Positions 12,297-37,024 of a stretch of DNA of 64,000 nucleotides are shown here, in pieces. Each line of letters opens with the position of its first letter. The stretch's first letter is position 1. The position numbers and the translations under genes are program-made. The notes below the pieces were generated by a model. The model was not told the DNA's origin and made no database searches. It was given only the letters and a program-made list of their open reading frames with translations. This DNA comes from an uncultured Thalassospiraceae bacterium (GTDB lineage Bacteria; Pseudomonadota; Alphaproteobacteria; Rhodospirillales; 2-02-FULL-58-16). The stretch is taken from positions 314 to 64,313 of the forward strand of contig CAZWEZ010000005.1 of the NCBI GenBank assembly GCA_964632795.1. The letters are read 5' to 3'.

Positions 12297-12413
12297 ATGA
12301 AAGGGTACGCGGTGCCGTTCGCCATCGCCTTCGTGGTCTGCGGGGCGGCCTTCTTCGTCATGGACTACGCGGTGATGAACGTCCAGGGGCTGTCCCTGTT
12401 CTTTGAAAACTGA
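12297..12413 (+). CDS. Mini membrane protein, 38 aa (MKGYAVPFAIAFVVCGAAFFVMDYAVMNVQGLSLFFEN)
   Basis: GAGGGAGGAG (12281-12290) lies 6 nt upstream of ATG 12297. The product has a single TM helix and ends 28 nt before the CydA-like gene. Confidence 0.55.
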   Translation: MKGYAVPFAIAFVVCGAAFFVMDYAVMNVQGLSLFFEN

Positions 12414-12441
12414 CGCCATCTCGAGAGGAAGGCAAACTGAG

Positions 12442-14250
12442 ATGAGGGATCGTCTGGCGAAAACCGGCTGGCTGGCGTTGGCGTTGGTCCTGGCCGTGCT
12501 GGTGTTGGGCGGCGGCATCGAAGCCGTCGCCGCCGAGTCGGCCGCCGAGACGGTGGCCGAAGCCGAAGCGCCGCCCCTCTACGCCCCCGCGCCCCGGTTG
12601 AGCGTGGCCGACTACCCGACCATCGCCGGCGTCAATTCGCGGGTCGTGGTGTGGCTGGTCGCCCAGTTGCACCTGTGGTTCGCAGCCTTCGTGCTGGCGG
12701 TGCCGATCTTCGTCTTCATCATCGAGGCGATCGGCATGAAGACCCGGGACAAGCGCTTCGACGACATGGCCTACGAGTTCATCAAGGTCTCGATCACCGC
12801 CTATTCGCTGACCGCGATCTCGGGCGGTCTGCTGGTCTTCTCGCTGCTGATCTTCTATCCCCACCTGTTCCTCTACCTGTCGACGATCTTCAAGGAGACG
12901 ATGTTCTACTACGCGATCCTGTTCTTCGCCGAGAGCGCCTTCCTCTACATCTACTACTACGGTTGGCACTGGCTGCAGGGGGGATTCCGCAAGTGGGTGC
13001 ACCTGACCCTGGGGCTGCTGCTCAACGCCGTCGGCACGTTGCTGATGTTCCTGGCCAACGCCTGGCTGACCTTCATGATGAGCCCGGCCGGGGTCGATGC
13101 GGCCGGGGTCTTCGGCGGCGACACCATGGTTTCGATCCACAACTACCTGTGGAACCCCTTCAACCTTCACCGGTTCATCGCCAACATCGCCTACGGCGGC
13201 TCCATCGTCGGCGCCTACGCCGCCTTCAGGTTCCTGAGCGCGACGGCGCGCGACCAGAAGGCCCACTACGACTGGATGGGCTACAACGCCAACTTCATCG
13301 CCATCTCGGCGCTGTTGCCGCTGCCGTTCGCCGGTTATTACCTGTCGGCCGAGTTCTACGCCTACAGCCAGCAGATGGGGATCACCCTGATGGGCGGCAT
13401 CTTCGCCTGGATGTTCATCATCCAGGCGGTGCTGATCGGCGCCCTGTTCCTGTCGGCCAACTATTACCTGTGGTGCGGGATGGGGCGCAGCGACGGGGCG
13501 GTCCGCTACAACAAGTACATCAAGTACATCGCGGTGGTGATCGTGGCCTCGTTCCTGGTCTGGTTCACCCCCCACACCCTGGTCCTGACGAATGAGGAAC
13601 TGAAGGCGCTGGGCGGGCCGTATCACAAGTACATCGGCCCGCTGGGCATCATGCCGGCCAAGAACACGGCGGTGAACCTGATGATCCTGTTCACCTTCGT
13701 CAGCTTCGTGATCTACCGGCGCTGCAACAAGGTCGCCACGGTGTCGTGGGTCAAGGCCGGCAACGCCTTCCTTGTGGCGCTGTTCGCCACCGGCATCATC
13801 AACCTGTTCATCCTCGGCATCTACCACGGCTACTTCACCAACACCGTCTACAAGGTCGCGTCCTCCTGGCCACAGGTCGTCACCACCCTGATCATCATCG
13901 TCGTCACCGTCGTCGTCGACAACCTGATGTACAAGGGGGCCAGGGAGGTCGCTCCCCTCCAGTGGGGCCGGGTTCCCGCGCGCTCGCAGTACGCCCTGTT
14001 CCTGCTGGCGGTGGCCTTCACCTGGCTGATGGGGCTGATGGGGTATGTCCGCTCGGGCATCCGCCAGCACTGGCACGTGGTCGACATCATGCGCGACAAC
14101 TCGACCGAAGCCTTCACCCCGACCATAAGGTACGCGACCAACGTGGTTTCGGTGGGCACGGTCATCTTCATGGCCCTGGTCATCTTCGTGTTCTGGCTGA
14201 GCCAGGTCGGCGGCCGCAAGACGGTTCCCGCCGGCTACTGGAAGGAATAG
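12442..14250 (+). CDS. Cytochrome bd subunit I-like (CydA-like) polytopic membrane protein, orphan (no CydB partner)
   Basis: ATG 12442 follows GAGAGGAAGG. Helix-1 has a His motif (VAQLHLWFAAFVLAVPIF). An FFAESAFLYIYYYGW segment resembles the CydA FFLE..F..FGW segment. ANAWLTFMMSPAG resembles NSWMQ.P.G, and NPFNLHRFIANIAYGG is also present. The product is ~602 aa. The next ORF is a cytochrome c, not cydB. Confidence 0.75.
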   Translation: MRDRLAKTGWLALALVLAVLVLGGGIEAVAAESAAETVAEAEAPPLYAPAPRLSVADYPTIAGVNSRVVVWLVAQLHLWFAAFVLAVPIFVFIIEAIGMKTRDKRFDDMAYEFIKVSITAYSLTAISGGLLVFSLLIFYPHLFLYLSTIFKETMFYYAILFFAESAFLYIYYYGWHWLQGGFRKWVHLTLGLLLNAVGTLLMFLANAWLTFMMSPAGVDAAGVFGGDTMVSIHNYLWNPFNLHRFIANIAYGGSIVGAYAAFRFLSATARDQKAHYDWMGYNANFIAISALLPLPFAGYYLSAEFYAYSQQMGITLMGGIFAWMFIIQAVLIGALFLSANYYLWCGMGRSDGAVRYNKYIKYIAVVIVASFLVWFTPHTLVLTNEELKALGGPYHKYIGPLGIMPAKNTAVNLMILFTFVSFVIYRRCNKVATVSWVKAGNAFLVALFATGIINLFILGIYHGYFTNTVYKVASSWPQVVTTLIIIVVTVVVDNLMYKGAREVAPLQWGRVPARSQYALFLLAVAFTWLMGLMGYVRSGIRQHWHVVDIMRDNSTEAFTPTIRYATNVVSVGTVIFMALVIFVFWLSQVGGRKTVPAGYWKE

Positions 14251-14256
14251 GGGGCG

Positions 14257-15084
14257 ATGGGAAACTTCCTCAGGGTGGTCGTCTTCAGCCTCATCACCAT
14301 CGTCTTGTTCGCCGGCTATTCCGGGTGGGGGATCCCGCAGATCAAACCGGCGCCCCCGCCCAAGGAGGAAAAGCTGGACCTCGGCGCCATGACCATGGAC
14401 CGCTTCATCGCCCTGGGGGAGAAGATCTACAAGGGCAAGGGGACCTGCACGCTGTGCCACAACGAGCTGGGCCGGGCGCCGATGCTGGACAATGCCGCCG
14501 CGACCGCCGCCGAGCGGCTGGCCGATCCCGGATACCAGGGCACGGCCGAAACCGTCGAGGAATTCCTTTACGAGTCCATGGTCGATCCCACGGCCTACGT
14601 GGTCGCCGGCTTCGGCAAGAAGGGCACCAACGACACGGTCAGCCCGATGACAGACGTGTCGGCCGGCAGCACCCGGCTGTCGGAGGCCGAAATCAGCGCC
14701 CTCATCGCCTACCTCCAGGACCTGGCCGGGGCCGAGGTGACGGTGGAGATTCCGACCGGCGTCGCCGAAGACGACGGCGAGGAAGACGGCGAGGAGGGCG
14801 AGGCCAGGGCGCCCCTCGAGAGCGCCGAGGAGGTGATCGAGGAATTCGCCTGCGGCATTTGCCACGTCATCGCTGGCGAGGAAGGGGAGTTGGGTCCCGA
14901 CCTGTCGAAGATCGGCGCCGACAGGGACCGCGACTTCCTGCGCCGCTCCATCCTCGACCCCAACGCCGAGCTCACCGAGGGCTTCGAGGAGGATATGATG
15001 CCCCCCGACTACGGCGAACAGATGTACGCCAAGGAACTGGAAATGCTGCTGGATTACATGGCCGGGTTGAAAGAGGGGGAATGA
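14257..15084 (+). CDS. Membrane-anchored dihaem cytochrome c with acidic linker
   Basis: There is an N-terminal TM anchor, two CXXCH motifs (CTLCH, CGICH) and an EDDGEEDGEEGE linker. The stop overlaps the next start (ATGA at 15081-15084). Confidence 0.85.
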   Translation: MGNFLRVVVFSLITIVLFAGYSGWGIPQIKPAPPPKEEKLDLGAMTMDRFIALGEKIYKGKGTCTLCHNELGRAPMLDNAAATAAERLADPGYQGTAETVEEFLYESMVDPTAYVVAGFGKKGTNDTVSPMTDVSAGSTRLSEAEISALIAYLQDLAGAEVTVEIPTGVAEDDGEEDGEEGEARAPLESAEEVIEEFACGICHVIAGEEGELGPDLSKIGADRDRDFLRRSILDPNAELTEGFEEDMMPPDYGEQMYAKELEMLLDYMAGLKEGE

Positions 15085-15875
15085 GGACGATGTGGATTCT
15101 CAGCTTGTTCCGGGCCAGGTTGCTCCAGGCGATCCTGGTCCTGGTCGGGATTTACGTCGCCTTCATCGTCGTCTTCGATTATCTGCTCGGCGAGGTGATC
15201 CCCTCCAGCCTGCTGAACATGTACATGTTCTTCGCGGCGGCCGGGGTGTTCATGGTCTTCACCTTCACCGAGGAGGGGGCCCGCGAGATGGTGGCGCCGA
15301 TCAAGGCGCTGGTCGAGGATTCGTCCCGGAAGGTGATCCGCAACGTGGTTTTCGCGATCGTCCCCCTGGTGGCCGGGGCTTACGCCTACATGCAGATGCT
15401 GCCCGGCCTGGAGGCGCCGCTCGAGCTGCGCTCCATCCATCCGGCGCCGCCGACGACGGCCAAGATGTTCGGCAAGCGTTTCGACCTGCAGACCCTGGAG
15501 AACCCGTACCGCAAGTTCGAGAAGGAGGACCCGGAGAAGTTCCGCCAGCTGGTCGCCGCGGGGGCCGAGGTGTACATCGAGAACTGCCACTTCTGCCATG
15601 GCGACAAGCTCGACGGCAAGGGTCCCTACGCGGCGGGTCTGAACCCGATCCCTCTCAGTTTCCAGGACATCGGGACCATCGCCCAGTTGCAGGAATCCTA
15701 CCTCTTCTGGCGGATCACCACCGGCGGCCCCGGCCTGCCCGAGGAGGCGGCGCCGTGGATTTCGTCGATGCCGATCTGGGAGGACTTCCTGAGCGAGGAT
15801 GAGATCTGGAAGGTGATCCTGTTCCTCTACGACTACACCGGCCACCGGCCGCGGGCCTGGGGGGAGCACGAGTGA
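15081..15875 (+). CDS. Three-TM membrane protein with C-terminal monohaem cytochrome c domain
   Basis: The start is MRTMWILSLFRARLLQAILVLVGIYVAF. There is one CXXCH (CHFCH) followed by LFWRITTGGPG...MPIW. The upstream part of ORF 13746..15875 is an artefact. Confidence 0.8.
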   Translation: MRTMWILSLFRARLLQAILVLVGIYVAFIVVFDYLLGEVIPSSLLNMYMFFAAAGVFMVFTFTEEGAREMVAPIKALVEDSSRKVIRNVVFAIVPLVAGAYAYMQMLPGLEAPLELRSIHPAPPTTAKMFGKRFDLQTLENPYRKFEKEDPEKFRQLVAAGAEVYIENCHFCHGDKLDGKGPYAAGLNPIPLSFQDIGTIAQLQESYLFWRITTGGPGLPEEAAPWISSMPIWEDFLSEDEIWKVILFLYDYTGHRPRAWGEHE

Positions 15876-17398
15876 TGGTTGCCAGACGCTTTGCGTGGAT
15901 GATCACGGCGGCCCTGCTGGCGGGGGCGCCGGCTCATGGGGCGCCGGGCGACGCCGAGCGGGGAGAGGAGATCTACGTCAAGCGGTGCATGAACTGCCAC
16001 GGCGAGGAGGGCGACGGCCTGGGCCCGGGCGCCGAGCGGCTCAACCCGCCGCCCCGGGACTTCACGCTGGGCCTGTACAAGATCAAGACCACCGGCTTCG
16101 ACGATCCGGTGCCCAACGACGCCGACATCTACCGGATGATCGAGGTCGGCATGCCGGGGACCTCGATGCCCGGCTGGGGCGACGTGCTGTCCGAACAGGA
16201 GATATTGGACCTGGTCGCCTACCTCAAGGTATTCGCCGAACTGGAGGAGGAGGAACCCACCGAGCAGCTCGACTACGGCACCGCCGTAGCCTCTTCGGCC
16301 GACAGCATCGAGATCGGCCGCAAGCTGTTCCTGGACGGCGATCGGTGCTCCGAATGCCACGGCGTGGACGGCCGGGGAGACGCCATCAAGAAGCTCAAGG
16401 ACGACAACGGTGAGAGGACCTGGCCGCGCAACCTGACCAAGCCCTGGACCTTCATCGCCGGCAACGATCCCAAGGAGATCTTCGCCCGCATCTCGGTCGG
16501 CATCCCGGGCACCCAGATGCCGTCCTTCGCCGACCCCAAGAGCAAGAAGAAGCTGAGCGTCGAGGAGCGCTGGCACATCGCCAACTTCACCGCCTCGCTG
16601 GCCGACCCCGCCAAGACGGTACGGGCCGAGAAGACGGTGATCAAGGCGGCCAAGATCGACGGCGAGCTGCCCTCCGGACCCGAGGACCCCGCGTGGGCGG
16701 CGATCGAGGCGGTGAACTTCTTCATGGTCCCCCAGATGTTCCTCGAGGAACGGTTCTTCACCCCGTCCAACGACACCGTCTCGGCGCGCGCCCTCTACAA
16801 CGACCGGGCCATCGCCTTCCTGCTCGAATGGGACGACCGCACCCGGAGCACGCCCGGCGACGCGGCGGCGGAGAAGATCGCCGACCCCGGGATCGCCGAG
16901 GACGGGATCGCCATCCAACTGCCGGTGAGCATTCCCGAGGACATGGAGAAGCCCTATTTCGTGATGGGCGACGCCGCCGACCCGGTCAATTTCTGGCACT
17001 GGCGCGGGGGCACCGCCGAGGAGCCCGAGAGCGTCGCCCTGTACAACGCCAGAGGTCTCGCCGAGGTCGAGGAACGGGACGCCGCGGCGGCCGGCATCGC
17101 CGCCAAGGGAGCCTACAAGGCCGGCACCTGGCGGGTGATGATGACCAGGGAGCTGACCACCTCCGATGCCGAGAACGACCTCCAGTTCGAGGAGGGCCGG
17201 TTCATCCCCATCGCCTTTTCCGCCTGGGACGGCTCCAACAGCGAACGGGGCTCCAGGCGCACCGTGTCCACCTGGTACTGGCTGCTTCTCGAACCGTCGG
17301 TCGGCTCCAAGCCGATCGTCGCCGCGCTGATCGTCATCGTCCTGCTGCTCGGCGCCGAGCTGTGGTGGGCCCGCAGCGCGACGCGCAAAGGGACCTGA
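15875..17398 (+). CDS. Dihaem cytochrome c fused to an EB_dh (ethylbenzene-dehydrogenase gamma / DOMON-like haem-binding) domain, with C-terminal TM anchor
   Basis: A signal peptide is present. The haem motifs are CMNCH and CSECH. The C-terminal half (FFMVPQMFLEERFFTP...LLEWDD...IAIQLP...NFWHWRGG...GTWRVMMTREL...FSAWDGSNSERGSRRTVSTWYWL) matches my recollection of the EB_dh family. The start is GTG 15872 or ATG 15875, overlapping the upstream stop. Confidence 0.8.
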   Translation: MVARRFAWMITAALLAGAPAHGAPGDAERGEEIYVKRCMNCHGEEGDGLGPGAERLNPPPRDFTLGLYKIKTTGFDDPVPNDADIYRMIEVGMPGTSMPGWGDVLSEQEILDLVAYLKVFAELEEEEPTEQLDYGTAVASSADSIEIGRKLFLDGDRCSECHGVDGRGDAIKKLKDDNGERTWPRNLTKPWTFIAGNDPKEIFARISVGIPGTQMPSFADPKSKKKLSVEERWHIANFTASLADPAKTVRAEKTVIKAAKIDGELPSGPEDPAWAAIEAVNFFMVPQMFLEERFFTPSNDTVSARALYNDRAIAFLLEWDDRTRSTPGDAAAEKIADPGIAEDGIAIQLPVSIPEDMEKPYFVMGDAADPVNFWHWRGGTAEEPESVALYNARGLAEVEERDAAAAGIAAKGAYKAGTWRVMMTRELTTSDAENDLQFEEGRFIPIAFSAWDGSNSERGSRRTVSTWYWLLLEPSVGSKPIVAALIVIVLLLGAELWWARSATRKGT

Positions 17399-17446
17399 GC
17401 AGGAGACCGGACGATGGCCGAAGACCAACCCAGGAAAGGGGTCAAG

Positions 17447-17617
17447 ATGCGCATCTTCGGGGTCATCCTGATCTTCGTCGGGGTGCTCGACGGGATGCTG
17501 GCGTGGCGCGGCGGCTTCCAGCTCAGCGGCTTCTACGTGGTGCTGTTCGCCTCCGGGGTCCTGCTGTTCGCGCTGGGCGCCGTCAGGGGCCGGCGGCGGC
17601 CGGAGGAGTCCCGGTGA
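17447..17617 (+). CDS. Small two-TM membrane protein (56 aa from ATG 17447; 67 aa if ATG 17414)
   Basis: The product begins MRIFGVILIFVGVLDGMLAWRGG...VVLFASGVLLFALGAV. The stop overlaps the GTG start of the next gene (GTGA at 17614-17617). Confidence 0.5.
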   Translation: MRIFGVILIFVGVLDGMLAWRGGFQLSGFYVVLFASGVLLFALGAVRGRRRPEESR

Positions 17618-19266
17618 GCGAGGTCCCCCGGACCGAGGAGACCCCGGAGCGGTGGACGGCGCCCTGCCGGCGCATCCTGGTGGCACTCGACAATTCCGAC
17701 CACGCCGGGCGGGCGCTCGCCGAATCGATCCGCCTGGCCGGCTTCGCCGGGGGCACCGTGACCGGCATCCACGCCTACGCCGCCCGCCTCCACGACCGCC
17801 GTTTCCGGCAGATGGAGGGCGGGCTGCCGGCGCGCTACCTGGCCGAGGCCGAGATGTCGCACCAGCGCGAGGTCCACGACGACCTGATCACCCGCGGCCT
17901 CGACATCATCAGCGACAGCTACCACGACGTCGCCGAGAAGTCCTGCCGGCAGGCCGACGTCCCCTACCGCCGCCTCAGCCCGGAGGGCAAGAACTACCGG
18001 CGCATCGTCGAGGCCGTCGGGAGCGGCGACTTCGACCTTCTGGTCCTCGGCGCGCTGGGGGTCGGCGCGGTGCCCGGGGGCACCGTCGGCACCGTCTGCG
18101 AGCGGGTGGTCCGGCGCAGCCCGATCGACGTCCTGGTCGTCCGCGACCCCGCCCGGGCCCTCGACGCGGGGCCGATCGTGGTCGGCCTGGACGGCTCGCC
18201 GCGTTCCTTCGGCGCCCTGCTTGGCGCCCTCGACCTGGGGCGCCGGCTGGGCGCCGTGGTCCACGCCGTGGCCGCCTACGACCCCTACTACCACTACGTC
18301 GCCTTCAGGCGCATCTCCGGGGTGCTGAGCGAGGAGGCGGGCAAGGTGTTCCGCTTCAAGGAGCAGGAGCAGCTCCACGAGGAGCTGATCGACGAGGGCA
18401 TCGCCCGCATCTACCGCTCCCACCTCGAAGTGGCCGCCAGGATCGCCGGCGAGGACGGCGTCGAGCTGGTCACCGAGCTGCTGGACGGCAAGCCCTACCG
18501 GACCATCCTCGGCTACCTGGAGAAGGTCGGCGCCGGCCTGCTGATGGTGGGGCGGACCGGCATCCACGCCGATTCCGCCCTCGACATCGGCGGCAACGCC
18601 GAGAACCTGCTGCGCCTGGCGCCGTGCCACGTGTGGTTCGTCGCGGCGTCCTACGAGCCGCCCCTGGAGATGGTCGCCGCCGAAACCGTCGCCTGGAGCC
18701 CCGAGGCCGAGGAGTTGCTGTCCAGGGCCCCCGAGTTCGCCCGCGACATGGCCCGTCAGGCGGTGCTGCGCCACGCCCACGAACAGGGCCACACCTTCAT
18801 CACCACCGACATCGTCGGGGAGGTGGCCAACCGGCTGATGCCGGGGCGCGGCGAGGCCGCCTGCCCCCACGGCGCGGCGGAGCCGGCATGGAGCGCCGAG
18901 GCAAGCGCCCTGATCGAGGGCCTCGACAATCCCGCCCTGGCCGCCAACGTCCGCCTGCGGGCCGAGAAGCTGGCCCGCCGCGAAGGCGCGGAAACGGTCC
19001 TGGCGTCCCACCTCCGGCCCTTCATCGACGATCCCGGAGAAGGCGACTTAGCGCCGTGGTCGGCGGCGGCGCTGGCCTGCCTGGCCCGGGTCCCCGAGGC
19101 CGTGCGCGAGCGCGTCCGGGCCCGTGTCGAGACGGTGGCCCGCAACCGGGGGGCCGGCGAGGTGACGCCCGAGATCGTCGAGGCCGGGTTCGCCGAGGCG
19201 CGCCAGGCGATGCACCGGGCGATGCTGGACGGCGGCCACAAGCGGACCGTCGACGACGGGGAATAG
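17614..19266 (+). CDS. Tandem universal-stress-protein (USP) domains fused to three PCP_red-like (ChlB/BchB C-terminal type) repeats
   Basis: GGAGGAG (17602-17608) precedes GTG 17614. There are two USP-like halves (ILVALDNSDH...LLVLGALG; IVVGLDGSPRS...LLMVGRTG). Three repeats follow of the pattern W(S/T)xEAxxxLxxxPxxxRxxxR...G...(V/I)Txxxx, at roughly 18694-18816, 18889-19014 and 19057-19188. Confidence 0.75.
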   Translation: MSEVPRTEETPERWTAPCRRILVALDNSDHAGRALAESIRLAGFAGGTVTGIHAYAARLHDRRFRQMEGGLPARYLAEAEMSHQREVHDDLITRGLDIISDSYHDVAEKSCRQADVPYRRLSPEGKNYRRIVEAVGSGDFDLLVLGALGVGAVPGGTVGTVCERVVRRSPIDVLVVRDPARALDAGPIVVGLDGSPRSFGALLGALDLGRRLGAVVHAVAAYDPYYHYVAFRRISGVLSEEAGKVFRFKEQEQLHEELIDEGIARIYRSHLEVAARIAGEDGVELVTELLDGKPYRTILGYLEKVGAGLLMVGRTGIHADSALDIGGNAENLLRLAPCHVWFVAASYEPPLEMVAAETVAWSPEAEELLSRAPEFARDMARQAVLRHAHEQGHTFITTDIVGEVANRLMPGRGEAACPHGAAEPAWSAEASALIEGLDNPALAANVRLRAEKLARREGAETVLASHLRPFIDDPGEGDLAPWSAAALACLARVPEAVRERVRARVETVARNRGAGEVTPEIVEAGFAEARQAMHRAMLDGGHKRTVDDGE

Positions 19267-19269
19267 GCC

Positions 19270-20526
19270 ATGGCCTCCACCGTCCAGCCGCCGTACCTGG
19301 TCGCCCTCAACCTGACCCGACGCTGCAACCTCCGTTGCGCCCACTGCTACCTGGACGCCGGCACCCGGGCCGGGGGCGGAGCCGGCGCCGGAGAAGAACT
19401 ATCCACCGCCGAGGTCGAAACCCTGCTCGAGGGGATCGCCGCGCTGAACGGCGAGGCGATGGTGGTGCTGACCGGCGGCGAGCCGCTGCTGCGCCCCGAC
19501 CTCGAGGCGATCGCCCGCCACGGCTCCGGCCTCGGGCTGATGATGGTGCTCGGCACCAACGGCACCCTGCTCGACGCGCGGCGGGTCGCCGGCCTGATCG
19601 CCGCCGGGGTGCGGGGCGCCGGGATCAGCCTGGATTCCCTGGATGCGGACTATCACGACGGTTTCCGGGGCGTGGCCGGCTGCTGGGAGAAGACCATGGC
19701 GGCCATCGACGCCTGCCGGCGGGGCGGGCTCGGCTTCCAGATCCACTTCTCGGTGAGCGACGACAACGCCGACCAGTTGGACGACATGATCGCCTTCGCC
19801 CGCTCGGCCGGGGCGCTGGTGCTCAACGTCTTCTTCCTGGTCTGCACCGGGCGCGGCGAGCAGCTGTCCAACGTCTCCGCGGCGACTTTCGAAGACGTCC
19901 TGGGCCGCATCGCCCGGGCCGCCCACGCCGAGAGCGGATTGCTGATCAGGGCCAAGTGCGCCCCCCACTTCAAACGCCTGGCCATGGAGCTCGACCCGTC
20001 GTGGCCGATCACCCTGGCCCACGGCTACGAGGCCGGCGGCTGCCTGGCCGGCAGCCGCTACTGCCGGGTGACCCCGGAAGGCGAGGTCACGGCCTGTCCC
20101 TACATGGAGCCGTCCGCCGGTTCGATCCGCGAGCGCCCGTTGGCCGACATCTGGCGCGAGGCGCCGCAGTTCGCCCAACTCCGGGCGCCGGTTCTGGAGG
20201 GCCGCTGCGGGGAGTGCGAGTACCGCCGGATCTGCGGCGGCTGCCGGGCCCGTCCCCTGGCCAGGAGCGGCGACCTGATGGGCGAGGACTTCCTGTGCGG
20301 CTACCAGCCCCGGGGCGGGGCGGTGATCGAGCCCCTGAGGCCGGCGGCGGGGACCGTCTCGTGGACCCAGGAGGCCGAACAGCGGCTGCTCCGGGCGCCC
20401 GCCTTCCTGCGCCGGATGGTCCGCGGGCGGGCCGAGGAGTACGTCCGCGGCCGCGGCCGCAGCCGGGTCACCGCCGACGACATGCGAATCCTCGGCCAGC
20501 GGCGTTTCGGGGAGGACCGGCGATGA
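19270..20526 (+). CDS. Radical SAM/SPASM enzyme (AhbD/NirJ-like) with C-terminal PCP_red-like domain
   Basis: The CxxxCxxC motif is RRCNLRCAHCY (19324-19347). SPASM-type Cys clusters are present (CLAGSRYCRVTPEGEVTACPY; CGECEYRRICGGCRARP). The C-terminal WTQEAEQRLLRAPAFLRRMVRGRAEEYVRGRGRSRVTADDM lies at ~20362-20484. Confidence 0.85.
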   Translation: MASTVQPPYLVALNLTRRCNLRCAHCYLDAGTRAGGGAGAGEELSTAEVETLLEGIAALNGEAMVVLTGGEPLLRPDLEAIARHGSGLGLMMVLGTNGTLLDARRVAGLIAAGVRGAGISLDSLDADYHDGFRGVAGCWEKTMAAIDACRRGGLGFQIHFSVSDDNADQLDDMIAFARSAGALVLNVFFLVCTGRGEQLSNVSAATFEDVLGRIARAAHAESGLLIRAKCAPHFKRLAMELDPSWPITLAHGYEAGGCLAGSRYCRVTPEGEVTACPYMEPSAGSIRERPLADIWREAPQFAQLRAPVLEGRCGECEYRRICGGCRARPLARSGDLMGEDFLCGYQPRGGAVIEPLRPAAGTVSWTQEAEQRLLRAPAFLRRMVRGRAEEYVRGRGRSRVTADDMRILGQRRFGEDRR

Positions 20527-21935
20527 GGTTCGACGTGGCGATCGTCGGGGGCGGGATTTCGGGGCTGGCGACGGCCTACGAACTGGTCCGCCGGGGCCGC
20601 CGGGTGGTGGTCCTGGAGCGCCAGGTGCGGCCCGGCGGGACCGCCGTCTCCGAGCGCCTCGGCGGTTTCCTGATGGAGCACGGGCCGAGCACCCTCAACG
20701 GCGCTTCGGAGGCGGCGCTGGGCCTGTCCCGGGCGCTCGGCCTGGAGGGCGCGCGGTGCGAACTCGGCGACCGGGTGCGACGGCGCTACCTGGTCGACGG
20801 CGGAGGCCTGCACGGCATCTCGACCCATCCCCTGGGGTTCCTGGTCTCCGGCTACCTGTCGCCGGGGGCGCGGCTGCGGCTGCTGGCCGAGGCCGTGGTG
20901 CCGCGCCGCGCCGAAGACGGCGACGAGGAGACGATCGAGGACTTCTGCCGGCGCCGCTTCGGGGCCGAGTTCGCCGAGCGGGTGATCGACCCCCTGGTCG
21001 CCGGCATCTACGCCGCCCGGGCCGGCGAGGCGTCGGTGTCGGCGCTGTTCCCGACCCTGGTCGAGATGGAACGCCGCCACGGTTCGGTGTGCCGGGGGCT
21101 GGCCCGCCGCCGCCGGGGCGGGCGGATGCCGGGCAGCCGGCTGTTCTCGTTCGCCGGCGGCCTGGGCAGCCTGCCCCGGGCCCTGGCCGGGGCCCTCGGC
21201 GGGGTGGTGCGGAGCGGCATCGCGGTGCGCCGGGTGCGCCCGGCGGCCGGCGGTTATTCCATCGAGGCGGAGGCGGCAGGAAGCATCGAGGCGCGCTCGG
21301 TGGTGCTGGCCACCCAGCCCCACGTCACGGCGCGGCTGCTCGACGGCCTCGACGAGGCGGGCGCCGAGGCGGCCTCGGCCATCGCCGCGCCGCCGCTGGC
21401 GGTGGTCTTCCTCGGCTACCCCCGGCGCCGGGTCGCCCATCCCCTGGACGGCCTCGGCTTCCTCGGCGCCGAGGCCGAGGGGCGGGCGCTCAACGGCGCC
21501 CAGTTCTGCTCGACCATGTTCCCGGGCCGGGCGCCCGAGGGCCACGTGGCGGTGGCCGGCTACATCGGCGGGGCGCGGGCTCCGGAGCTGGCCCGGCTCG
21601 GCGAGGACGAGTTGATCTCCATCGCCCGCGAGGAGTTCGCCGACCTCATCGGGGCGCGGGGCGAACCGGTGGTGGCCCGGGTCCGCCACTGGCCGGTGGG
21701 GTTGCCCCAGTACCGGCTCGGCCACGCCTTACGCGCCGCCGCGCTGAGCGGCCTGGCCGAGCGCCGGCCCGGCCTCTATGCGACCGGCAACTATCTGCGC
21801 GGCCCCTCGGTGGCGGCCTGCCTGGCCCTGGCCCTGGAGACCGCCGCCGAAGCCGACGCCCACCTCGCCGCGAGCGCCGCCGAGGCGCCGCCCATCCGCC
21901 GTCACCGGCTTGCCCGGCCTGCCGCGGGAAGGTAG
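20523..21935 (+). CDS. FAD-dependent protoporphyrinogen/coproporphyrinogen oxidase (HemY/CgoX-type)
   Basis: ATG 20523 overlaps the upstream stop (ATGA). The dinucleotide-binding motif is MRFDVAIVGGGISGLATAYEL...LERQVRPGG. The family-typical tail is HWPVGLPQYRLGH...LYATGNYLRGPSV. The upstream 957 codons of ORF 17652..21935 are an artefact. Confidence 0.8.
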   Translation: MRFDVAIVGGGISGLATAYELVRRGRRVVVLERQVRPGGTAVSERLGGFLMEHGPSTLNGASEAALGLSRALGLEGARCELGDRVRRRYLVDGGGLHGISTHPLGFLVSGYLSPGARLRLLAEAVVPRRAEDGDEETIEDFCRRRFGAEFAERVIDPLVAGIYAARAGEASVSALFPTLVEMERRHGSVCRGLARRRRGGRMPGSRLFSFAGGLGSLPRALAGALGGVVRSGIAVRRVRPAAGGYSIEAEAAGSIEARSVVLATQPHVTARLLDGLDEAGAEAASAIAAPPLAVVFLGYPRRRVAHPLDGLGFLGAEAEGRALNGAQFCSTMFPGRAPEGHVAVAGYIGGARAPELARLGEDELISIAREEFADLIGARGEPVVARVRHWPVGLPQYRLGHALRAAALSGLAERRPGLYATGNYLRGPSVAACLALALETAAEADAHLAASAAEAPPIRRHRLARPAAGR

Positions 21936-28339: not shown

Positions 28340-29515
28340 ATGCCCCAACCGATCACCATCCTGGCCTATGGTTTCCGCCCCTTCTTCCTCCTCGCGGGCC
28401 TCTACGGGGTGTTGTCCATGGCCTTCTGGCTGTTGGTCCTCGCGGGCGGGCCGGACGTTTCGCCGACCATCGCGCCGCAGCTCTGGCACGGCCACGAGAT
28501 GCTGTTCGGCTTCGCCGCCGCGGCGGTCAGCGGTTTTCTGTTGACGTCGGTCCCCAGTTGGACCAACTCGCCCCCGGCAACCGGCCCCTGGCTGGCCCTG
28601 CCGGTGGTCCTGTGGATTGCCGGGCGGGCCGCCATGTGGCTGGCCGGTGTGCTTCCCCCGGTGGTGACGGCTGTCGCCGATTTGTCCCTGATCCCGGTCC
28701 TGTTCCTGATGGTGGGGCCCCGGATCCTGGGCTGCGGACAGCGCCGGAACTACATCTTCCTGGTCCTTCTGGGGGTGCTGTTCGCGGCCAACCTGCTGTT
28801 CCACCTGGAGGCCCTGGGGGTGAGCGGGGATACGGCGCGCGGCGGTCTCAAGCTGGCGGTCTACGGCTACATCCTGATGCTGTCGGTGGTCGCCGGACGG
28901 ATCATACCCTTCTTCACCGCCAACGCCCTCAAGGGACAGGGCGAGGACGTCGAGATCCGCCCCAACCCGGTCCTCGAAATCCTGGCCCTGGTGGTGATGG
29001 CCGCCTACATGGCCAGCGACCTGGCCGAGGTCGCCGAATCGATCCGTGGCGGGCTGGCCTTCGCCACCCTGCCGATCCTGCTGCTGCGGATGGCCAATTG
29101 GCGAACCGCGAAGACGCTGGGCATCCCGATCCTGTGGATCATCCACCTCGGCTACCTGTGGCTGCCGGTGGGGTTCGCCAGCCTCGGGGCGGCCCACCTG
29201 GGCGCCGCCGTGCCCATCACCATGGGACTTCACGCGCTGACCACCGGCGCCGTCGGGACCATCGTCATGGCGGTGATGACGCGCGCCGGGCTGGGCCATA
29301 CCGGGCGCCCGCTGGTGGTCCCGTGGCCGATCGTCGCGGCCTATCTGCTGGTCACCCTGGCCGCCCTGTTCCGCACCGCAGCACCGTTGAGCGATGCCGG
29401 CTACGACATCCTGATCATCGCCGCCGGCGGCGCGTGGTCGGCGGCCTATGGGGTGTTCACGGTGGTCTACTGGCCGCTCCTGACCCGTCCGCGCATCGAC
29501 GGCAAGCCCGGTTGA
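28340..29515 (+). CDS. nnrS: NnrS family haem/copper membrane protein (NO-response)
   Basis: The product begins MPQPITILAYGFRPFFLLAGLYGVLSMAFWL...LWHGHEMLFGFAAAAVSGFLLTSVPSWT. It is a 391-aa polytopic protein. Confidence 0.9.
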   Translation: MPQPITILAYGFRPFFLLAGLYGVLSMAFWLLVLAGGPDVSPTIAPQLWHGHEMLFGFAAAAVSGFLLTSVPSWTNSPPATGPWLALPVVLWIAGRAAMWLAGVLPPVVTAVADLSLIPVLFLMVGPRILGCGQRRNYIFLVLLGVLFAANLLFHLEALGVSGDTARGGLKLAVYGYILMLSVVAGRIIPFFTANALKGQGEDVEIRPNPVLEILALVVMAAYMASDLAEVAESIRGGLAFATLPILLLRMANWRTAKTLGIPILWIIHLGYLWLPVGFASLGAAHLGAAVPITMGLHALTTGAVGTIVMAVMTRAGLGHTGRPLVVPWPIVAAYLLVTLAALFRTAAPLSDAGYDILIIAAGGAWSAAYGVFTVVYWPLLTRPRIDGKPG

Positions 29516-29526
29516 TACCAAGGGCG

Positions 29527-30222
29527 CTAACCGGCGTCGTTGCCCAGGCAGTAGCGTTGCAGGTCGGCGATGTCGTGGAGTTCGACCTGGTGGCCGTGGG
29601 TGGAGACGCCGTATTTCCTGAGCTTGGCCAGGGCCCGCGAAAGGCTTTCCGGTTTCATCCCCAGGCGGGCGGCGACCAGGGTCTTGTCGTAGGGGAGCCG
29701 GACCACCGCCTTGCCGTCCTTGGCGCCGCTGAGCTCGAGCAGGAACTCGCCCAGGCGCTGGGGCGTCGAGCGGGCCTGCAACTGTTCGATATGCAGGACC
29801 AGCCCCCGGAGCCTGAGCGACAGCGAGCCTATCATCTTGAGGCACAGATCGCCGTCCCGGCGCAGCAGGGAGAGGAACGCCGCCGCCGGGATCTCCAGCA
29901 ACCGGGCGTCTTCCACCACCTCGGCGCTGGCCGGGAAGTCCTTGCCCAGGAAGATCGCCGCCTCGGCCACGGTCTCCCCGGGCTTGAGGATGGCGATCAC
30001 CGTCTGCTCGCCCTCGGCGGTGTCGCGGAATATCTTCAGCCAGCCCGCGAGCAGCAGGTAGAAGCGGTCGGCGGGCTCGCCGCGCACGAACAGCAGCTTG
30101 CCCCGGGGGCATTCGATGACCCGCGCCTCGGCGAACAGGCTGCCCAGGACGTCCTCGGCCAGACCCGCGAACATCGGCGCGTTGCGGACGACCTTCAAGT
30201 CCTTGGCGTCGAACGACTTCAT
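29527..30222 (-). CDS. Crp/Fnr-family regulator, Dnr/NnrR-type (no N-terminal Cys cluster)
   Basis: There is a cNMP-binding-like fold (RGEPADRFYLLLAGWLKIF) and an HTH with the E--SR recognition motif (MKPESLSRALAKL). The FNR-type N-terminal Cys cluster is absent. The start is CAT 30220-30222. Confidence 0.9.
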   Translation of the reverse strand: MKSFDAKDLKVVRNAPMFAGLAEDVLGSLFAEARVIECPRGKLLFVRGEPADRFYLLLAGWLKIFRDTAEGEQTVIAILKPGETVAEAAIFLGKDFPASAEVVEDARLLEIPAAAFLSLLRRDGDLCLKMIGSLSLRLRGLVLHIEQLQARSTPQRLGEFLLELSGAKDGKAVVRLPYDKTLVAARLGMKPESLSRALAKLRKYGVSTHGHQVELHDIADLQRYCLGNDAG

Positions 30223-30287
30223 GGAACCGCGTACCGCCGGGGCATTTCCAGTTGGGCTTCGCGGGACATCATAGACCCTCGAGCGTC

Positions 30288-31127: not shown

Positions 31128-31132
31128 CCGAT

Positions 31133-32866: not shown

Positions 32867-32970
32867 CCCTTCGCATTCTCCTCTCGACGCATACATGTTC
32901 GACCCCGGCGTGTCCGTGGACCGGGATATCCCGGTCCATGGGCACGCTGGTCACACCATCTATGAAGTTA

Positions 32971-33427: not shown

Positions 33428-37024
<3,597 letters not shown>

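What the first reader, a model, noticed from the sequence alone, without database searches (positions are those of the whole stretch)
17614..19266. Tandem USP protein carrying three copies of the ChlB/BchB C-terminal (PCP_red-like) module
Residues ~361-525 contain three ~42-aa repeats:
- WSPEAEELLSRAPEFARDMARQAVLRHAHEQGHTFITTDIV
- WSAEASALIEGLDNPALAANVRLRAEKLARREGAETVLASHL
- WSAAALACLARVPEAVRERVRARVETVARNRGAGEVTPEIV

They follow the pattern of the C-terminal helical domain of the protochlorophyllide reductase B subunit (W-T-x-E-A-E..L..IP.FVR...R...E..A...G...IT). In DPOR, as I recall, that domain closes over the tetrapyrrole substrate. A fourth copy ends the adjacent radical SAM enzyme. A non-photosynthetic context with four such modules next to a HemY-type oxidase suggests a tetrapyrrole-binding or hand-off role. 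The USP (nucleotide-binding) domains may regulate it. This is inference.
Basis: partly seen in the sequence, partly recalled or inferred. Interest (0 to 1): 0.55.

Follow-up and report, generated by a model that had tools for sequence, protein, structure and literature searches.

The report
Haem-enzyme partner protein with PCP_red repeats
This gene encodes an uncharacterised protein (two nucleotide-binding USP domains plus three small 'PCP_red' modules) that nearly always sits next to a haem-synthase-like radical SAM enzyme carrying the same module, usually beside an unusual cytochrome bd-like oxidase. It is probably a helper subunit for making or delivering that oxidase's haem.

Summary
Gene 17614..19266 encodes a 550-aa tandem-USP protein with three PCP_red (PF08369) repeats. 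The next gene is an AhbD/NirJ2-like radical SAM/SPASM enzyme ending in a fourth copy, and a HemY-type oxidase follows. The three genes close a tightly coupled operon that starts with a non-canonical cytochrome bd-like oxidase.

In DPOR the helix that covers the pigment is BchB 398-420. PCP_red maps about 55-65 residues further on (474-518 or 485-527), so it is not the 'lid'.

A tetrapyrrole role is still likely, for three reasons:
- The USP-PCP_red/rSAM-PCP_red pair is adjacent in 72 of 73 testable alphaproteobacterial loci. It recurs in a Nitrosomonadales genome and in other distant metagenomic lineages.
- The pair recurs beside bd-like oxidase clusters.
- The flexible linkers between repeats carry Cys-Pro(-His) motifs, which are the signature of haem-regulatory motifs. 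They occur in 98 of 120 relatives against about 7 expected.

My best reading is a nucleotide-binding accessory subunit. It would dock to the rSAM enzyme through PCP_red modules and hold haem or coprohaem transiently on its linkers. I found no published description. All evidence is computational.

The parts
12403..14250 (+). Non-canonical cytochrome bd-like oxidase subunit I (615 aa). It has no CxxCH motif and at least 11 hydrophobic segments, which fits the OR-N type. It is the first gene of the operon.
   Evidence: Pfam Cyt_bd_oxida_I scores 48.7 bits against a cut-off of 26.2. No NCBIfam family matches. The family description comes from the bd-superfamily preprint.
14257..15084 (+). Dihaem cytochrome c with an N-terminal membrane anchor.
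   Evidence: Pfam Cytochrom_C. There are two CxxCH motifs.
15081..15875 (+). Membrane-anchored monohaem cytochrome c. Its ATG overlaps the previous stop codon (ATGA).
   Evidence: One CxxCH motif and three hydrophobic segments. It is conserved in related loci.
15872..17398 (+). Dihaem cytochrome c fused to an EB_dh (ethylbenzene-dehydrogenase gamma-like, haem b) domain, with a C-terminal anchor. Its GTG overlaps the previous stop codon.
   Evidence: Pfam EB_dh 95.2 bits, Cytochrom_C 73 bits. NCBIfam DMSO_red_II_gam 119 bits.
17414..17617 (+). Small 67-aa hydrophobic ORF. Its stop codon overlaps the GTG start of the USP gene (GTGA).
   Evidence: Sequence. A gene of the same size is called at this position in public assemblies (67 aa in L092; 69 aa in L001).
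17614..19266 (+). The finding: a 550-aa protein made of a tandem USP followed by three PCP_red repeats.
17668..18144 (+). USP domain 1 (aa 19-177). It has the motif G146-x2-G149-x9-G159-T160 and a long alpha2 hairpin (aa 57-113) that carries the invariant residues H53, H60 and H88.
   Evidence: Pfam Usp. Conservation across representatives at 40-66% identity. AF2 secondary structure. Foldseek hits to ATP-binding tandem USPs 3CIS and 3AB8.
18169..18642 (+). USP domain 2 (aa 186-343). It has the motif G313-x2-G316-x9-G326 and a second long hairpin (aa 224-280) that carries the invariant residues H227 and H255.
18694..18819 (+). PCP_red repeat 1 (aa 361-402).
   Evidence: 46.0 bits on its own.
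18865..18873 (+). Cys418-Pro419-His420 in the flexible linker between repeats 1 and 2. This is a haem-regulatory-type CP motif.
   Evidence: The linker at aa 412-421 has pLDDT below 50. CP motifs occur in linkers of 98 of 120 relatives against 7.3 expected, and never inside a repeat. Motif definition: PMC10377097 and PMC11442138.
18889..19011 (+). PCP_red repeat 2 (aa 426-466), the most divergent copy.
   Evidence: 21.5 bits, E 2.5e-4, over the full model length. It is conserved in a position-specific way in orthologues.
19057..19185 (+). PCP_red repeat 3 (aa 482-524). It is followed by a tail containing A-M-H534 and G-G-H542.
   Evidence: 48.6 bits.
19270..20526 (+). AhbD/NirJ2-like radical SAM/SPASM enzyme (418 aa) with a C-terminal PCP_red copy (aa 365-406, nt 20362..20487).
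   Evidence: Pfam Radical_SAM, SPASM and PCP_red. NCBIfam NirJ2 291 bits and AhbD 287 bits. C19x3C23x2C26 and the auxiliary-cluster motif CX2CX5CX2CX17C are present (sequence; motif from PMC10114771). AF2 and Foldseek give a SPASM rSAM fold.
20523..21935 (+). HemY-type FAD porphyrinogen oxidase (470 aa). Its ATG overlaps the rSAM stop codon (ATGA).
   Evidence: TIGR00562 scores 241 bits against a cut-off of 97.85. PDB sequence matches: 2IVD 251 bits, 3I6D 157 bits. Gene boundary.

Best explanation
The 550-aa protein is the dedicated accessory subunit of the AhbD-like radical SAM enzyme encoded immediately downstream. Together with the HemY-type oxidase, where one is present, they form a tetrapyrrole (haem) finishing and delivery module. 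This module serves the haem-rich cytochrome bd-like oxidase complex encoded upstream in the same operon.

Proposed mechanism. All steps are inferred unless marked as shown.
1. The PCP_red modules are small helix-helix-strand-helix units joined by flexible linkers (shown by the model). They act as protein-protein docking elements that tie the USP protein to the single, strongly basic PCP_red module on the rSAM enzyme. They are not pigment lids.
2. The flexible linkers and tail carry Cys-Pro(-His), Met-Pro and Met-His/Gly-Gly-His motifs (shown). These bind the iron tetrapyrrole transiently, either the coprohaem substrate or the haem product. The protein would therefore accept or present the tetrapyrrole at the rSAM active site and pass it on towards the oxidase subunits.
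3. The tandem USP core keeps both G-2x-G-9x-G nucleotide-binding motifs, plus a family-specific set of invariant histidines on two long helical hairpins (shown). It binds an adenine nucleotide and gates or regulates this hand-off according to energy or haem status.
4. The rSAM enzyme performs an AhbD-type, oxygen-independent side-chain reaction. The most likely reaction is coprohaem to haem b. Alternatives are a CgdH-like step on coproporphyrinogen or a further modification of haem.
5. The HemY-type enzyme supplies the porphyrin-level oxidation in hosts whose housekeeping pathway does not provide it.
For: Partnership:
- The rSAM-PCP_red gene lies directly downstream in 72 of 73 testable alphaproteobacterial loci, and HemY follows in 57 of 58.
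- Start and stop codons overlap or nearly abut (GTGA, a 3-nt gap, ATGA).
- The same pair recurs at 40-50% identity in distant lineages with different repeat numbers:
  - a Nitrosomonadales MAG with USP-PCP, then rSAM with three PCP_red, then HemY-like;
  - L087;
  - L089 and L090;
  - L091, where the gene order is reversed.

Link to bd-like oxidases:
- A bd-like subunit I lies in the locus in 40 of 54 testable alphaproteobacterial loci. In 6-7 more, the EB_dh cytochrome is cut by the locus edge.
- The link recurs in L089 (cupredoxins, Cyt_bd_oxida_I, cytochrome c) and in L091 (Cyt_bd_oxida_I fused to cytochrome c).

Tetrapyrrole chemistry:
- The rSAM matches the AhbD and NirJ2 models end to end (E 1e-85 to 1e-86). 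These scores are far above those for peptide maturases.
- It has the AhbD auxiliary-cluster Cys motif.
- Some sources name relatives 'AdoMet-dependent heme synthase'.

Haem-binding hint:
- CP motifs occur in 98 of 120 close relatives against 7.3 expected. All 108 motifs lie in linkers.
- They occur in 30 of 49 USP-type and 25 of 94 PCP-only representatives at 50% identity, against 6.6 and 9.6 expected.
- The window protein has C418-P419-H420 in a linker with pLDDT below 50.
- CP motifs bind haem transiently, typically from loops, and can pass it to a nearby His (PMC10377097). The alphaproteobacterial regulator Irr has G-C-P-W-H-D (PMC11442138).

Docking role of PCP_red:
- The module is shared by both partners, and its copy number varies: 3 or 5 in the USP protein, 1 or 3 in the rSAM.
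- Charges are complementary: the rSAM copy is +7, the USP repeats are -3, -2 and 0.
- In BchB the module lies away from the substrate helix.
- There is a weak resemblance to the dimerising helix-strand-helix half of the histone fold.

Nucleotide binding:
- Both glycine motifs and the D-x-S motifs are invariant down to 40% identity.
- The closest folds are the ATP-binding tandem USPs Rv2623 and TTHA0350.
Against: - Nothing is experimental.
- CP motifs are not universal. 22 of 120 close relatives lack them, and linker 1 then has Met-Pro. The motifs are absent from rSAM-borne PCP_red arrays. A lone Cys in a linker could instead serve redox or metal binding.
- The rSAM scores below the AhbD and NirJ2 equivalog cut-offs (287-291 against 500), so its substrate may differ.
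- The HemY protein looks more like a protoporphyrinogen oxidase (2IVD) than the Bacillus coproporphyrinogen oxidase. This fits a coprohaem route poorly.
- HemY is missing from several distant loci and is replaced by SCO1/SenC in L084.
- About 8 of 54 loci show no bd-like gene within 10 kb.
- The histone-fold resemblance is inconclusive (hhalign probability 43%).
Confidence: 0.42

Rival explanations
1. The PCP_red modules themselves bind the tetrapyrrole, as a cap or carrier. The three copies, plus the one on the rSAM, form a substrate-holding or hand-off array.
For: - The module occurs in DPOR subunit B and in an AhbD-like enzyme, both of which handle tetrapyrroles.
- Conserved Arg residues in the second helix could pair with propionate groups.
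- The gene neighbourhood is tetrapyrrole-related.
Against: - In DPOR the substrate-contacting helix is BchB 398-420, whereas PCP_red lies at 474-527. The papers I read describe no pigment contact for it.
- PCP_red also occurs in many repeat-only proteins and in fusions with rubredoxin-like domains. That fits a generic docking unit.
- The motifs that look like haem ligands lie outside the fold.
Confidence: 0.18
2. An electron-transfer adaptor. The USP-PCP_red protein recruits or forms part of the redox chain that reduces the rSAM cluster, or that takes the electron released in the oxidative decarboxylation. The PCP_red modules are the docking sites for the redox partner.
For: - 23 of 118 multi-copy PCP_red representatives carry rubredoxin-like (RUBY_RBDX) CxxC...CxxC inserts between repeats. 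These include USP-type homologues that sit next to rSAM-PCP_red genes.
- AhbD needs an electron acceptor that has not been identified (PMC10114771).
- DPOR is also an electron-transfer complex.
Against: - The window protein and all 120 close relatives lack the rubredoxin-like insert and have no other Cys cluster.
- USP domains are not known redox carriers.
- The rubredoxin-like inserts could be structural zinc ribbons.
Confidence: 0.13
3. A haem- and nucleotide-sensing feedback regulator rather than a carrier. The protein binds to the rSAM enzyme (or to HemY) and switches it off or on when free haem occupies the CP motifs or when ATP is low.
For: - CP motifs are classically regulatory and of low affinity.
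- USP proteins are commonly nucleotide-dependent regulators. Foldseek hits include Rv2623 and a cAMP-binding USP.
- Irr senses haem at the ferrochelatase.
Against: - Gene order and translational coupling that are this invariant suggest a stoichiometric subunit.
- The number of repeats and motifs varies (3 or 5 repeats). That is easier to reconcile with a multivalent scaffold than with a simple switch.
- Sequence alone cannot distinguish this model from the best explanation.
Confidence: 0.15
4. The USP-PCP_red protein, or the small PCP_red-only proteins, is the substrate of a protein-modifying SPASM radical SAM enzyme. The enzyme's own PCP_red copy would act as a recognition element.
For: - Most SPASM enzymes modify peptides or proteins. 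The closest solved folds are PqqE, SkfB, SuiB and anSME.
- In L087 a PCP_red-only gene follows the rSAM.
- An FGE-sulfatase gene neighbours the trio in L083.
Against: - The NCBIfam scores for AhbD and NirJ2 (287-291 bits, end to end) far exceed those for peptide maturases (at most 115 bits).
- No AhbD structure exists, so the fold hits default to peptide maturases.
- The frequent HemY neighbour has no role in this model.
Confidence: 0.06
5. An ordinary stress protein. The tandem USP gene lies here by chance, and the repeats are a passive tail.
For: Databases name it only 'universal stress protein'.
Against: - Synteny with the rSAM gene holds in 72 of 73 loci and across distant lineages.
- The repeats are conserved in a position-specific way.
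- Residues are invariant down to 40% identity.
Confidence: 0.02

Closest known systems
AhbD, the radical SAM haem b synthase (NirJ2/AhbD clade; TIGR04545 and TIGR04055). This is the closest known relative of the partner enzyme.
   Same: - It has a radical SAM core with CX3CX2C.
- It has a SPASM domain with the CX2CX5CX2CX17C auxiliary-cluster motif.
- It aligns with the family models end to end.
- AhbD is known to occur outside the full Ahb pathway, as an oxygen-independent coprohaem decarboxylase (PMC13564367).
   Different: - It scores below the equivalog cut-offs (287-291 against 500).
- It carries an extra C-terminal PCP_red module.
- It has an obligate USP-PCP_red neighbour.
- It occurs in Alphaproteobacteria next to a PgoX-like HemY and bd-like oxidases.
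- The substrate is unknown.
The C-terminal PCP_red domain of DPOR subunit BchB/ChlB, and the stand-alone PCP_red proteins 2KRU and 2L09.
   Same: It is the same module of about 45 residues (W-x-x-E-A...P-x-F-x-R...G...V-T). The profile E-values are 1e-11 to 4e-5.
   Different: - There is no nitrogenase-like body. The BchB equivalog models score 49-53 bits against cut-offs of 490-509.
- Here the module is present in three copies and is fused to USP domains.
- The role of the module in DPOR is itself undefined. It is not the substrate-capping helix at residues 398-420.
Tandem-type universal stress proteins (M. tuberculosis Rv2623, T. thermophilus TTHA0350, E. coli UspE).
   Same: It has a two-USP-domain fold (Foldseek E 1e-13, TM relative to target 0.64-0.81) and G-2x-G-9x-G(S/T) ATP-type motifs.
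   Different: - Both alpha2 regions are expanded into helical hairpins of about 55 residues, with invariant His, Gln, Arg and Phe residues.
- The C-terminal PCP_red array and the CP-motif linkers have no counterpart.
Proteins with haem-regulatory (Cys-Pro) motifs, for example Bradyrhizobium Irr and haem oxygenase-2.
   Same: Cys-Pro occurs in flexible loops, often with His within 1-3 residues, and often after Gly or Lys and before Phe or Val.
   Different: There is no homology, only a shared short motif. Haem binding has not been tested here.
HemW (a radical-SAM-family haem chaperone), and hemN genes placed next to cbb3 oxidase operons.
   Same: These are functional analogies: a radical-SAM-type protein that hands haem to respiratory enzymes (PMC10114771), and an oxygen-independent haem-synthesis isoenzyme encoded beside a high-affinity oxidase (the latter from my own knowledge of Pseudomonas and Rhodobacter loci).
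   Different: The protein families are different (HemN/CgdH clade against AhbD clade). No USP or PCP_red partner is known for them.

Membership tests
Pfam PCP_red (PF08369) | Profile score above the gathering score (32.5 bits). | tested here: met
   The whole protein scores 89.8 bits. R1 scores 46.0, R3 48.6 and the rSAM copy 54.0. R2 alone scores 21.5 bits (E 2.5e-4), below the cut-off but over the full model length.
DPOR subunit B (BchB/ChlB; TIGR01278, NF002789) | A nitrogenase-like three-domain body that reaches the equivalog cut-off. | tested here: not met
   It scores 49.5 and 53.3 bits against cut-offs of 490 and 509. Only the last ~50 model positions match.
Universal stress protein family (PF00582), ATP-binding subclass | USP fold plus the G-2x-G-9x-G(S/T) motif. 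| tested here: met
   Usp scores 109.3 bits in two domains. Domain 1 has G146-x2-G149-x9-G159-T160. Domain 2 has G313-x2-G316-x9-G326-G327. The glycines are invariant down to 40% identity. Foldseek hits ATP-bound tandem USPs. Nucleotide binding itself was not tested.
AhbD haem b synthase (TIGR04545) / NirJ2 (TIGR04055), for the partner enzyme | Equivalog score of at least 500 bits. | tested here: not met
   It scores 287.4 and 290.9 bits, with alignments covering model positions 1-339 of 339 and 1-325 of 326. It is a relative, not a certified equivalog.
AhbD haem b synthase, for the partner enzyme | CX3CX2C radical SAM motif and the CX2CX5CX2CX17C auxiliary-cluster motif. | tested here: met
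   C19-N-L-R-C23-A-H-C26 and CGECEYRRICGGC-x17-C are present in the translated sequence. The motif is as given in PMC10114771. The cysteines are invariant in 76 homologues.
AhbD haem b synthase, for the partner enzyme | Converts coprohaem to haem b. | not testable with these tools
   This needs an anaerobic enzyme assay.
HemY-type porphyrinogen oxidase (TIGR00562), for the neighbour | Equivalog score at or above the cut-off, and an FAD amine-oxidase fold. | tested here: met
   It scores 241.2 bits against a cut-off of 97.85. Pfam Amino_oxidase scores 185.9 bits. PDB 2IVD scores 250.8 bits. Whether the substrate is coproporphyrinogen or protoporphyrinogen was not tested.
Haem-regulatory (CP) motif proteins | A Cys-Pro dipeptide in an exposed, flexible segment. 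| tested here: met
   C418-P419-H420 lies in a linker with pLDDT below 50. The family-wide enrichment is 98 of 120 against 7.3 expected, and every motif lies in a linker.
Haem-regulatory (CP) motif proteins | Reversible haem binding through the Cys thiolate. | not testable with these tools
   This needs spectroscopy on purified protein.
Cytochrome bd superfamily subunit I, for the operon's first gene | A Cyt_bd_oxida_I profile match. The OR-N type lacks the quinol site and haem c motifs. | tested here: inconclusive
   PF01654 scores 48.7 bits against a cut-off of 26.2. There is no CxxCH motif. The haem ligands, the quinol site and the subfamily placement were not examined.

The most novel reading that the evidence does not exclude
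The USP-PCP_red/rSAM-PCP_red pair is a dedicated cofactor-maturation machine for the non-canonical (OR-N/OR-C) cytochrome bd-like oxidases. In this reading the AhbD-like enzyme does not merely duplicate haem b synthesis. It makes a modified active-site haem for these oxidases. The USP-PCP_red protein is an ATP-gated chaperone that carries this haem on its Cys-Pro/His linkers to the apo-oxidase. PCP_red would then be a general docking module for handing tetrapyrroles between enzymes, which would also explain its unexplained presence at the end of BchB/ChlB.
Probability: 0.15. Interest if true: 0.85.

Novelty: new variant of a known kind. Interest (0 to 1): 0.6.

Why it matters
If the reading is right, four things follow.
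1. It defines a partner subunit and a possible haem hand-off route for an AhbD-type radical SAM enzyme. The electron acceptor and product release of that enzyme class are still unresolved.
2. It gives a first functional handle on the PCP_red module, which has two solved NMR structures and sits on every DPOR B subunit. I found no described role for it.
3. It links cofactor supply to the poorly understood bd-like oxidases. Many of the related genomes are MAGs whose isolate labels point to oxygen-minimum-zone sample sets. The haem complement and assembly of those oxidases are unknown.
4. It would extend Cys-Pro haem-regulatory motifs to a widespread bacterial family.

The family is large: more than 3,700 sequence clusters and 169 species-level genomes. 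Every genome in the 80 loci listed is an uncultured MAG, which may explain why it has escaped study.

Tried and rejected
- Literature searches for 'PF08369' and 'PCP_red' gave nothing relevant.
- The bd-superfamily preprint and a Nitrospinota genome paper do not mention rSAM, USP or HemY neighbours.
- A search combining bd-like, radical SAM and protoporphyrinogen found no paper that links them.
- The Moser 2013 DPOR complex paper is not held. I therefore could not check whether PCP_red is ordered in 2YNM. Foldseek lists 488 modelled residues against 530 in the sequence, which is only a hint.
- AF2 models were obtained, but neither coordinates nor PAE are exposed. Domain contacts and the spatial clustering of the invariant histidines could not be examined, and no multimer prediction was possible.
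- Foldseek with the whole USP model returns only USP folds. The PCP_red part is swamped.
- The resemblance to the histone fold (HMMER E 5e-4; hhalign probability 43%) is too weak to use as proof.
- The promoter and terminator scan was uninformative.
- There are no tRNA or Rfam hits in the window.
- The apparent counter-example L031, which has no rSAM downstream, is a gene at a contig end. L059 shows only a 33-residue rSAM match, which I did not examine further.
- I considered and rejected filing the protein as a ChlB/BchB relative, because it fails the equivalog test, and as a generic stress protein, because of the synteny.


Full report
**Observation**

The ORF at 17614..19266 (+) starts with GTG and encodes 550 residues. 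Its start overlaps the stop codon of a small 67-aa hydrophobic ORF (GTGA). Public assemblies call exactly the same product.

Pfam finds two USP domains (109.3 bits) and PCP_red (89.8 bits; gathering score 32.5). Scored separately, the repeats give the following:
- The repeat starting at W361 scores 46.0 bits.
- The repeat starting at W426 scores 21.5 bits (E 2.5e-4, full model length, below the gathering score on its own).
- The repeat starting at W482 scores 48.6 bits.
- The C-terminal copy on the next protein scores 54.0 bits.

A six-frame scan finds no further copy in the 64 kb.

The next gene (19270..20526) carries Radical_SAM, SPASM and PCP_red. Its best NCBIfam matches are NirJ2 (291 bits) and AhbD, the haem b synthase (287 bits). 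Both alignments run end to end, and both scores fall below the 500-bit equivalog cut-offs. The protein has the CX3CX2C motif and exactly the AhbD auxiliary-cluster motif CX2CX5CX2CX17C described in PMC10114771.

The third gene (20523..21935; its ATG overlaps the rSAM stop codon) passes the protoporphyrinogen-oxidase equivalog (241 bits against 97.85). It is closer to Myxococcus PPO 2IVD (251 bits) than to Bacillus HemY 3I6D (157 bits).

**Surroundings**

Genes from 12403 to 21935 are packed with overlaps or gaps of a few bases, which indicates one operon. In order, they encode:
- a cytochrome bd-like subunit I (PF01654, 48.7 bits; no CxxCH motif; many hydrophobic segments);
- a dihaem cytochrome c;
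- a membrane-anchored monohaem cytochrome c;
- a dihaem cytochrome c fused to an EB_dh haem b domain;
- the small ORF;
- the USP-PCP_red protein;
- the rSAM enzyme;
- HemY.

This oxidase type corresponds to the 'OR-N' class in the bd-superfamily preprint. That preprint does not mention rSAM, USP or HemY neighbours.

The flanks are unrelated. Upstream lie PheST, a TRAP transporter and a proline-racemase-like gene, identified by reading the translations rather than by profile search. Downstream lie an EamA-type transporter, glutamate dehydrogenase and PhaR, also identified by reading. Further along the window there are NnrS, a PFOR and an OFOR, which are oxygen-sensitive enzymes, and amidases. 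There are no DPOR genes and no other haem-synthesis genes among the ORFs I scanned, and no RNA genes.

**Family and synteny**

The protein belongs to a large family that carries no name beyond 'universal stress protein'.
- More than 3,751 clusters at 90% identity match it. The listed top 120 all carry Usp and PCP_red.
- In one-genome-per-species GTDB contigs, 169 stretches encode a relative. The 80 loci listed are all MAGs. Nearly all are labelled Alphaproteobacteria (Rhodospirillales, Kiloniellales, Hyphomicrobiales). Many isolate labels point to oxygen-minimum-zone sample sets.

Across 81 of these loci:
- The rSAM-PCP_red gene is directly downstream in 72 of 73 testable cases. The single exception is a gene at a contig end.
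- HemY follows in 57 of 58 testable cases.
- A bd-like subunit I lies within the locus in 40 of 54 cases, and directly upstream on the same strand in 32.
- In 6-7 further loci, the EB_dh cytochrome is cut by the locus edge.

In some genomes a cluster of CCP_MauG, Rieske and molybdopterin-enzyme genes is inserted between the oxidase genes and the trio. In L084, SCO1/SenC replaces HemY.

A full-library profile search with the PCP_red repeats found only 1,697 representative clusters among 1.84 billion. The top 150 each hold 2-6 copies. Of 118 scanned with Pfam:
- 43 have Usp;
- 23 have a rubredoxin-like insert;
- 5-7 have Radical_SAM or SPASM;
- most of the rest are repeat-only proteins.

Family-specific HMMs show the same tandem-USP core with 2-5 repeats, and the same AhbD-like core with 1 or 3 repeats. 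Among close relatives the USP protein has 3 repeats (77 proteins) or 5 repeats (43 proteins), and the rSAM always has 1.

Genomic look-ups of distant representatives again show the pair side by side:
- A Nitrosomonadales MAG has cytochrome c, USP-PCP, rSAM with three PCP_red, and a HemY-like gene.
- L087 has USP-PCP with a rubredoxin-like insert, rSAM-PCP, and a PCP-only protein.
- L089 and L090 have two cupredoxins, Cyt_bd_oxida_I, cytochrome c, a two-component system, USP-PCP and rSAM-PCP.
- L091 has Cyt_bd_oxida_I fused to cytochrome c, several cytochromes c, c2-EB_dh, rSAM-PCP and a 1,147-aa USP-PCP.

The conserved core is therefore the USP-PCP_red/rSAM-PCP_red pair. The link to non-canonical bd-like oxidases is recurrent across distant lineages. 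HemY is frequent but optional.

**What PCP_red is in DPOR**

[quoted passage not shown] The cryo-EM study of Rhodobacter DPOR places that trans-acting helix at BchB residues 398-420, with His413 near the Mg (PMC12022308).

A profile of the PCP_red copies maps elsewhere in the solved BchB/ChlB chains:
- 474-518 of 525 in 3AEK_B;
- 485-527 of 536 in 8VQI_B;
- 460-504 of 511 in 2XDQ_B;
- 479-520 of 530 in 2YNM_D.

PCP_red is thus a separate terminal module, 55-65 residues beyond the capping helix. It also exists as stand-alone proteins with solved structures (2KRU, 2L09). I found no description of its function.

**Anatomy of the protein**

The AF2 model has mean pLDDT 77 and pTM 0.63.
- It shows a tandem USP core. 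Foldseek matches the ATP-binding tandem USPs Rv2623 and TTHA0350 at E about 1e-13.
- Three small modules follow. Each is a short strand at the Trp, an 8-residue helix, a 17-residue helix, a 2-residue strand and a 10-residue helix.
- The modules are joined by low-confidence linkers (aa 412-421 and 475-478).

Across 28 representatives at 40-66% identity, the invariant residues include:
- both D-x-S motifs;
- both G-2x-G-9x-G motifs;
- a pseudo-symmetric set on the two expanded alpha2 hairpins: H53, H60, R63, F64, E68, Q84, R85 and H88 on the first; H227, F231, F246, Q251 and H255 on the second.

This argues for nucleotide binding in both domains and for a second, family-specific ligand or interaction site. 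I could not characterise that site without coordinates.

Each repeat position (R1, R2, R3) is conserved in its own way across orthologues, so the copies are not interchangeable. The rSAM-borne copy is strongly basic (+7), while the USP-borne copies are neutral to acidic.

The PCP_red profile shows a weak resemblance to the alpha2-L2-alpha3 half of archaeal histones (HMMER E 5e-4; hhalign probability 43%). That would fit a pairing module, but it is inconclusive.

**A new observation: Cys-Pro motifs in the linkers**

- In 98 of 120 close relatives there is at least one Cys-Pro in the PCP_red region, against 7.3 expected from shuffles.
- All 108 motifs lie in the linkers: 60 after R1 and 48 after R3. 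None lies inside a repeat.
- Typical contexts are PKGCPAHRA, RFCPERGG, KAMCPVP and GGCPFA.
- The window protein has EAACPHGAA (C418-P419-H420) in the disordered linker.
- 119 of 120 relatives have Cys-Pro or Met-Pro at the start of linker 1.
- Where the 5-repeat forms have A-M-C-P after R3, the window protein has A-M-H534. In addition, 74 of 77 three-repeat forms end with G-G-H.
- The enrichment holds in representatives at 50% identity: 30 of 49 USP-type against 6.6 expected, and 25 of 94 PCP-only against 9.6 expected. The consensus is [G/K]-C-P-[F/V].
- rSAM-borne PCP_red arrays lack the motif.

Cys-Pro in flexible loops, often with a nearby His, is the defining feature of haem-regulatory motifs. 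These bind haem transiently and can hand it to a neighbouring His (PMC10377097). The alphaproteobacterial regulator Irr uses G-C-P-W-H-D (PMC11442138). This is independent, though only sequence-level, support for haem binding. It places the binding in the linkers rather than in the PCP_red fold.

**Best explanation**

I read the protein as the accessory subunit of the AhbD-like rSAM enzyme.
- PCP_red modules mediate docking between the two proteins.
- The linker and tail Cys/Met/His motifs hold the iron tetrapyrrole transiently.
- The nucleotide-binding USP core gates this.
- The whole module finishes and delivers haem for the bd-like oxidase complex encoded in the same operon.

Shown: the domain content, the synteny, the motif enrichment, the conserved nucleotide motifs and the AhbD-type cluster motifs.

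Inferred: the physical complex, haem binding, the direction of transfer and the reaction catalysed.

The chemistry has three open options:
- Coprohaem to haem b. This is the AhbD reaction, and AhbD is known to operate outside the full Ahb pathway (PMC13564367).
- A CgdH-like step that feeds the PgoX-like HemY.
- A modification of haem for the oxidase.

The PgoX-like character of HemY, and its absence from several distant loci, argue against a simple coprohaem bypass but do not exclude it. I put about 0.4 on the accessory-subunit or hand-off model.

**Rivals**

- A haem- and ATP-sensing feedback regulator: 0.15.
- An electron-transfer adaptor, suggested by the rubredoxin-like inserts in relatives and by AhbD's unidentified electron acceptor: 0.13.
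- A protein substrate of a SPASM maturase: 0.06.

**Comparison and novelty**

The parts belong to known families: USP, PCP_red, the AhbD/NirJ clade and HemY. The protein is not a ChlB/BchB, because the equivalog test fails. The partner enzyme is not a certified AhbD. I found no published description of the following:
- the obligate USP-PCP_red/rSAM-PCP_red pairing;
- its association with bd-like oxidases;
- the linker CP motifs.

I rate it a new variant of a known kind, namely an AhbD-type tetrapyrrole enzyme system with a new accessory subunit. It is of moderate to high interest, and it rests entirely on computational evidence.

Noticed in passing
window 18865..18873 (C418-P419-H420), and the inter-repeat linkers of family members P0001-P0120 and P0241-P0390: Cys-Pro motifs of the haem-regulatory type are strongly enriched. 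They occur only in the flexible linkers between PCP_red repeats: 98 of 120 relatives have one, against about 7 expected.
   Followed up: yes
window 17614..18660 (aa 53, 60, 88, 227, 255, 318): A pseudo-symmetric set of invariant His, Gln, Arg and Phe residues sits on two expanded helical hairpins of the USP domains. It is conserved down to 40% identity. It may be a second ligand site, for a metal or haem, but its spatial arrangement could not be checked.
   Followed up: partly
L001 10001..12088 and 43 of 120 close relatives: The family comes in 3-repeat and 5-repeat forms. The two extra C-terminal repeats resemble the stand-alone two-repeat proteins of about 130 aa (for example P0343) and end in G-x-F-H.
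   Followed up: partly
L085, L087 and L091 (distant relatives P0241, P0258, P0253): Rubredoxin-like CxxC-x12-CxxC inserts (Pfam RUBY_RBDX) lie between PCP_red repeats in many distant USP-type and repeat-only proteins (23 of 118). This hints at a redox or zinc-ribbon element that the window protein lacks.
   Followed up: partly
window 17414..17617: A small 67-aa hydrophobic ORF is translationally coupled (GTGA) to the USP gene. A gene of the same size is called at this position in related loci (L001, L092). Its function is unknown.
   Followed up: partly
window 12403..17398: This is a non-canonical cytochrome bd-like oxidase cluster. Subunit I has no haem c motif. Two membrane-anchored cytochromes c follow, then a dihaem c fused to an EB_dh haem b domain. 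In L001 a second set of cytochrome c/EB_dh genes sits upstream of it.
   Followed up: partly
L083 366..9970 and L084 15505..21644: In some relatives, a cluster sits next to the pair. It encodes two CCP_MauG peroxidases, a Rieske protein, an arsenite-oxidase-like Rieske_3/molybdopterin enzyme, and HEAT-repeat, CarboxypepD_reg and FGE-sulfatase proteins. In L084, SCO1/SenC takes the place of HemY.
   Followed up: no
L059 12178..12276: In this locus only a 33-residue fragment of the rSAM gene is detected between the USP gene and HemY. It may be a deletion, a pseudogene or an assembly gap.
   Followed up: no
window 38001..40000: G+C drops to 0.495, against about 0.65 elsewhere. Candidate ORFs there have low GC3 (0.62-0.63). 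This may be foreign or non-coding DNA.
   Followed up: no
window 28340..37213: NnrS (a haem-copper membrane protein of the NO response), a two-subunit 2-oxoacid:ferredoxin oxidoreductase and a 1,260-aa PFOR are encoded nearby. These oxygen-sensitive enzymes fit a low-oxygen lifestyle.
   Followed up: partly
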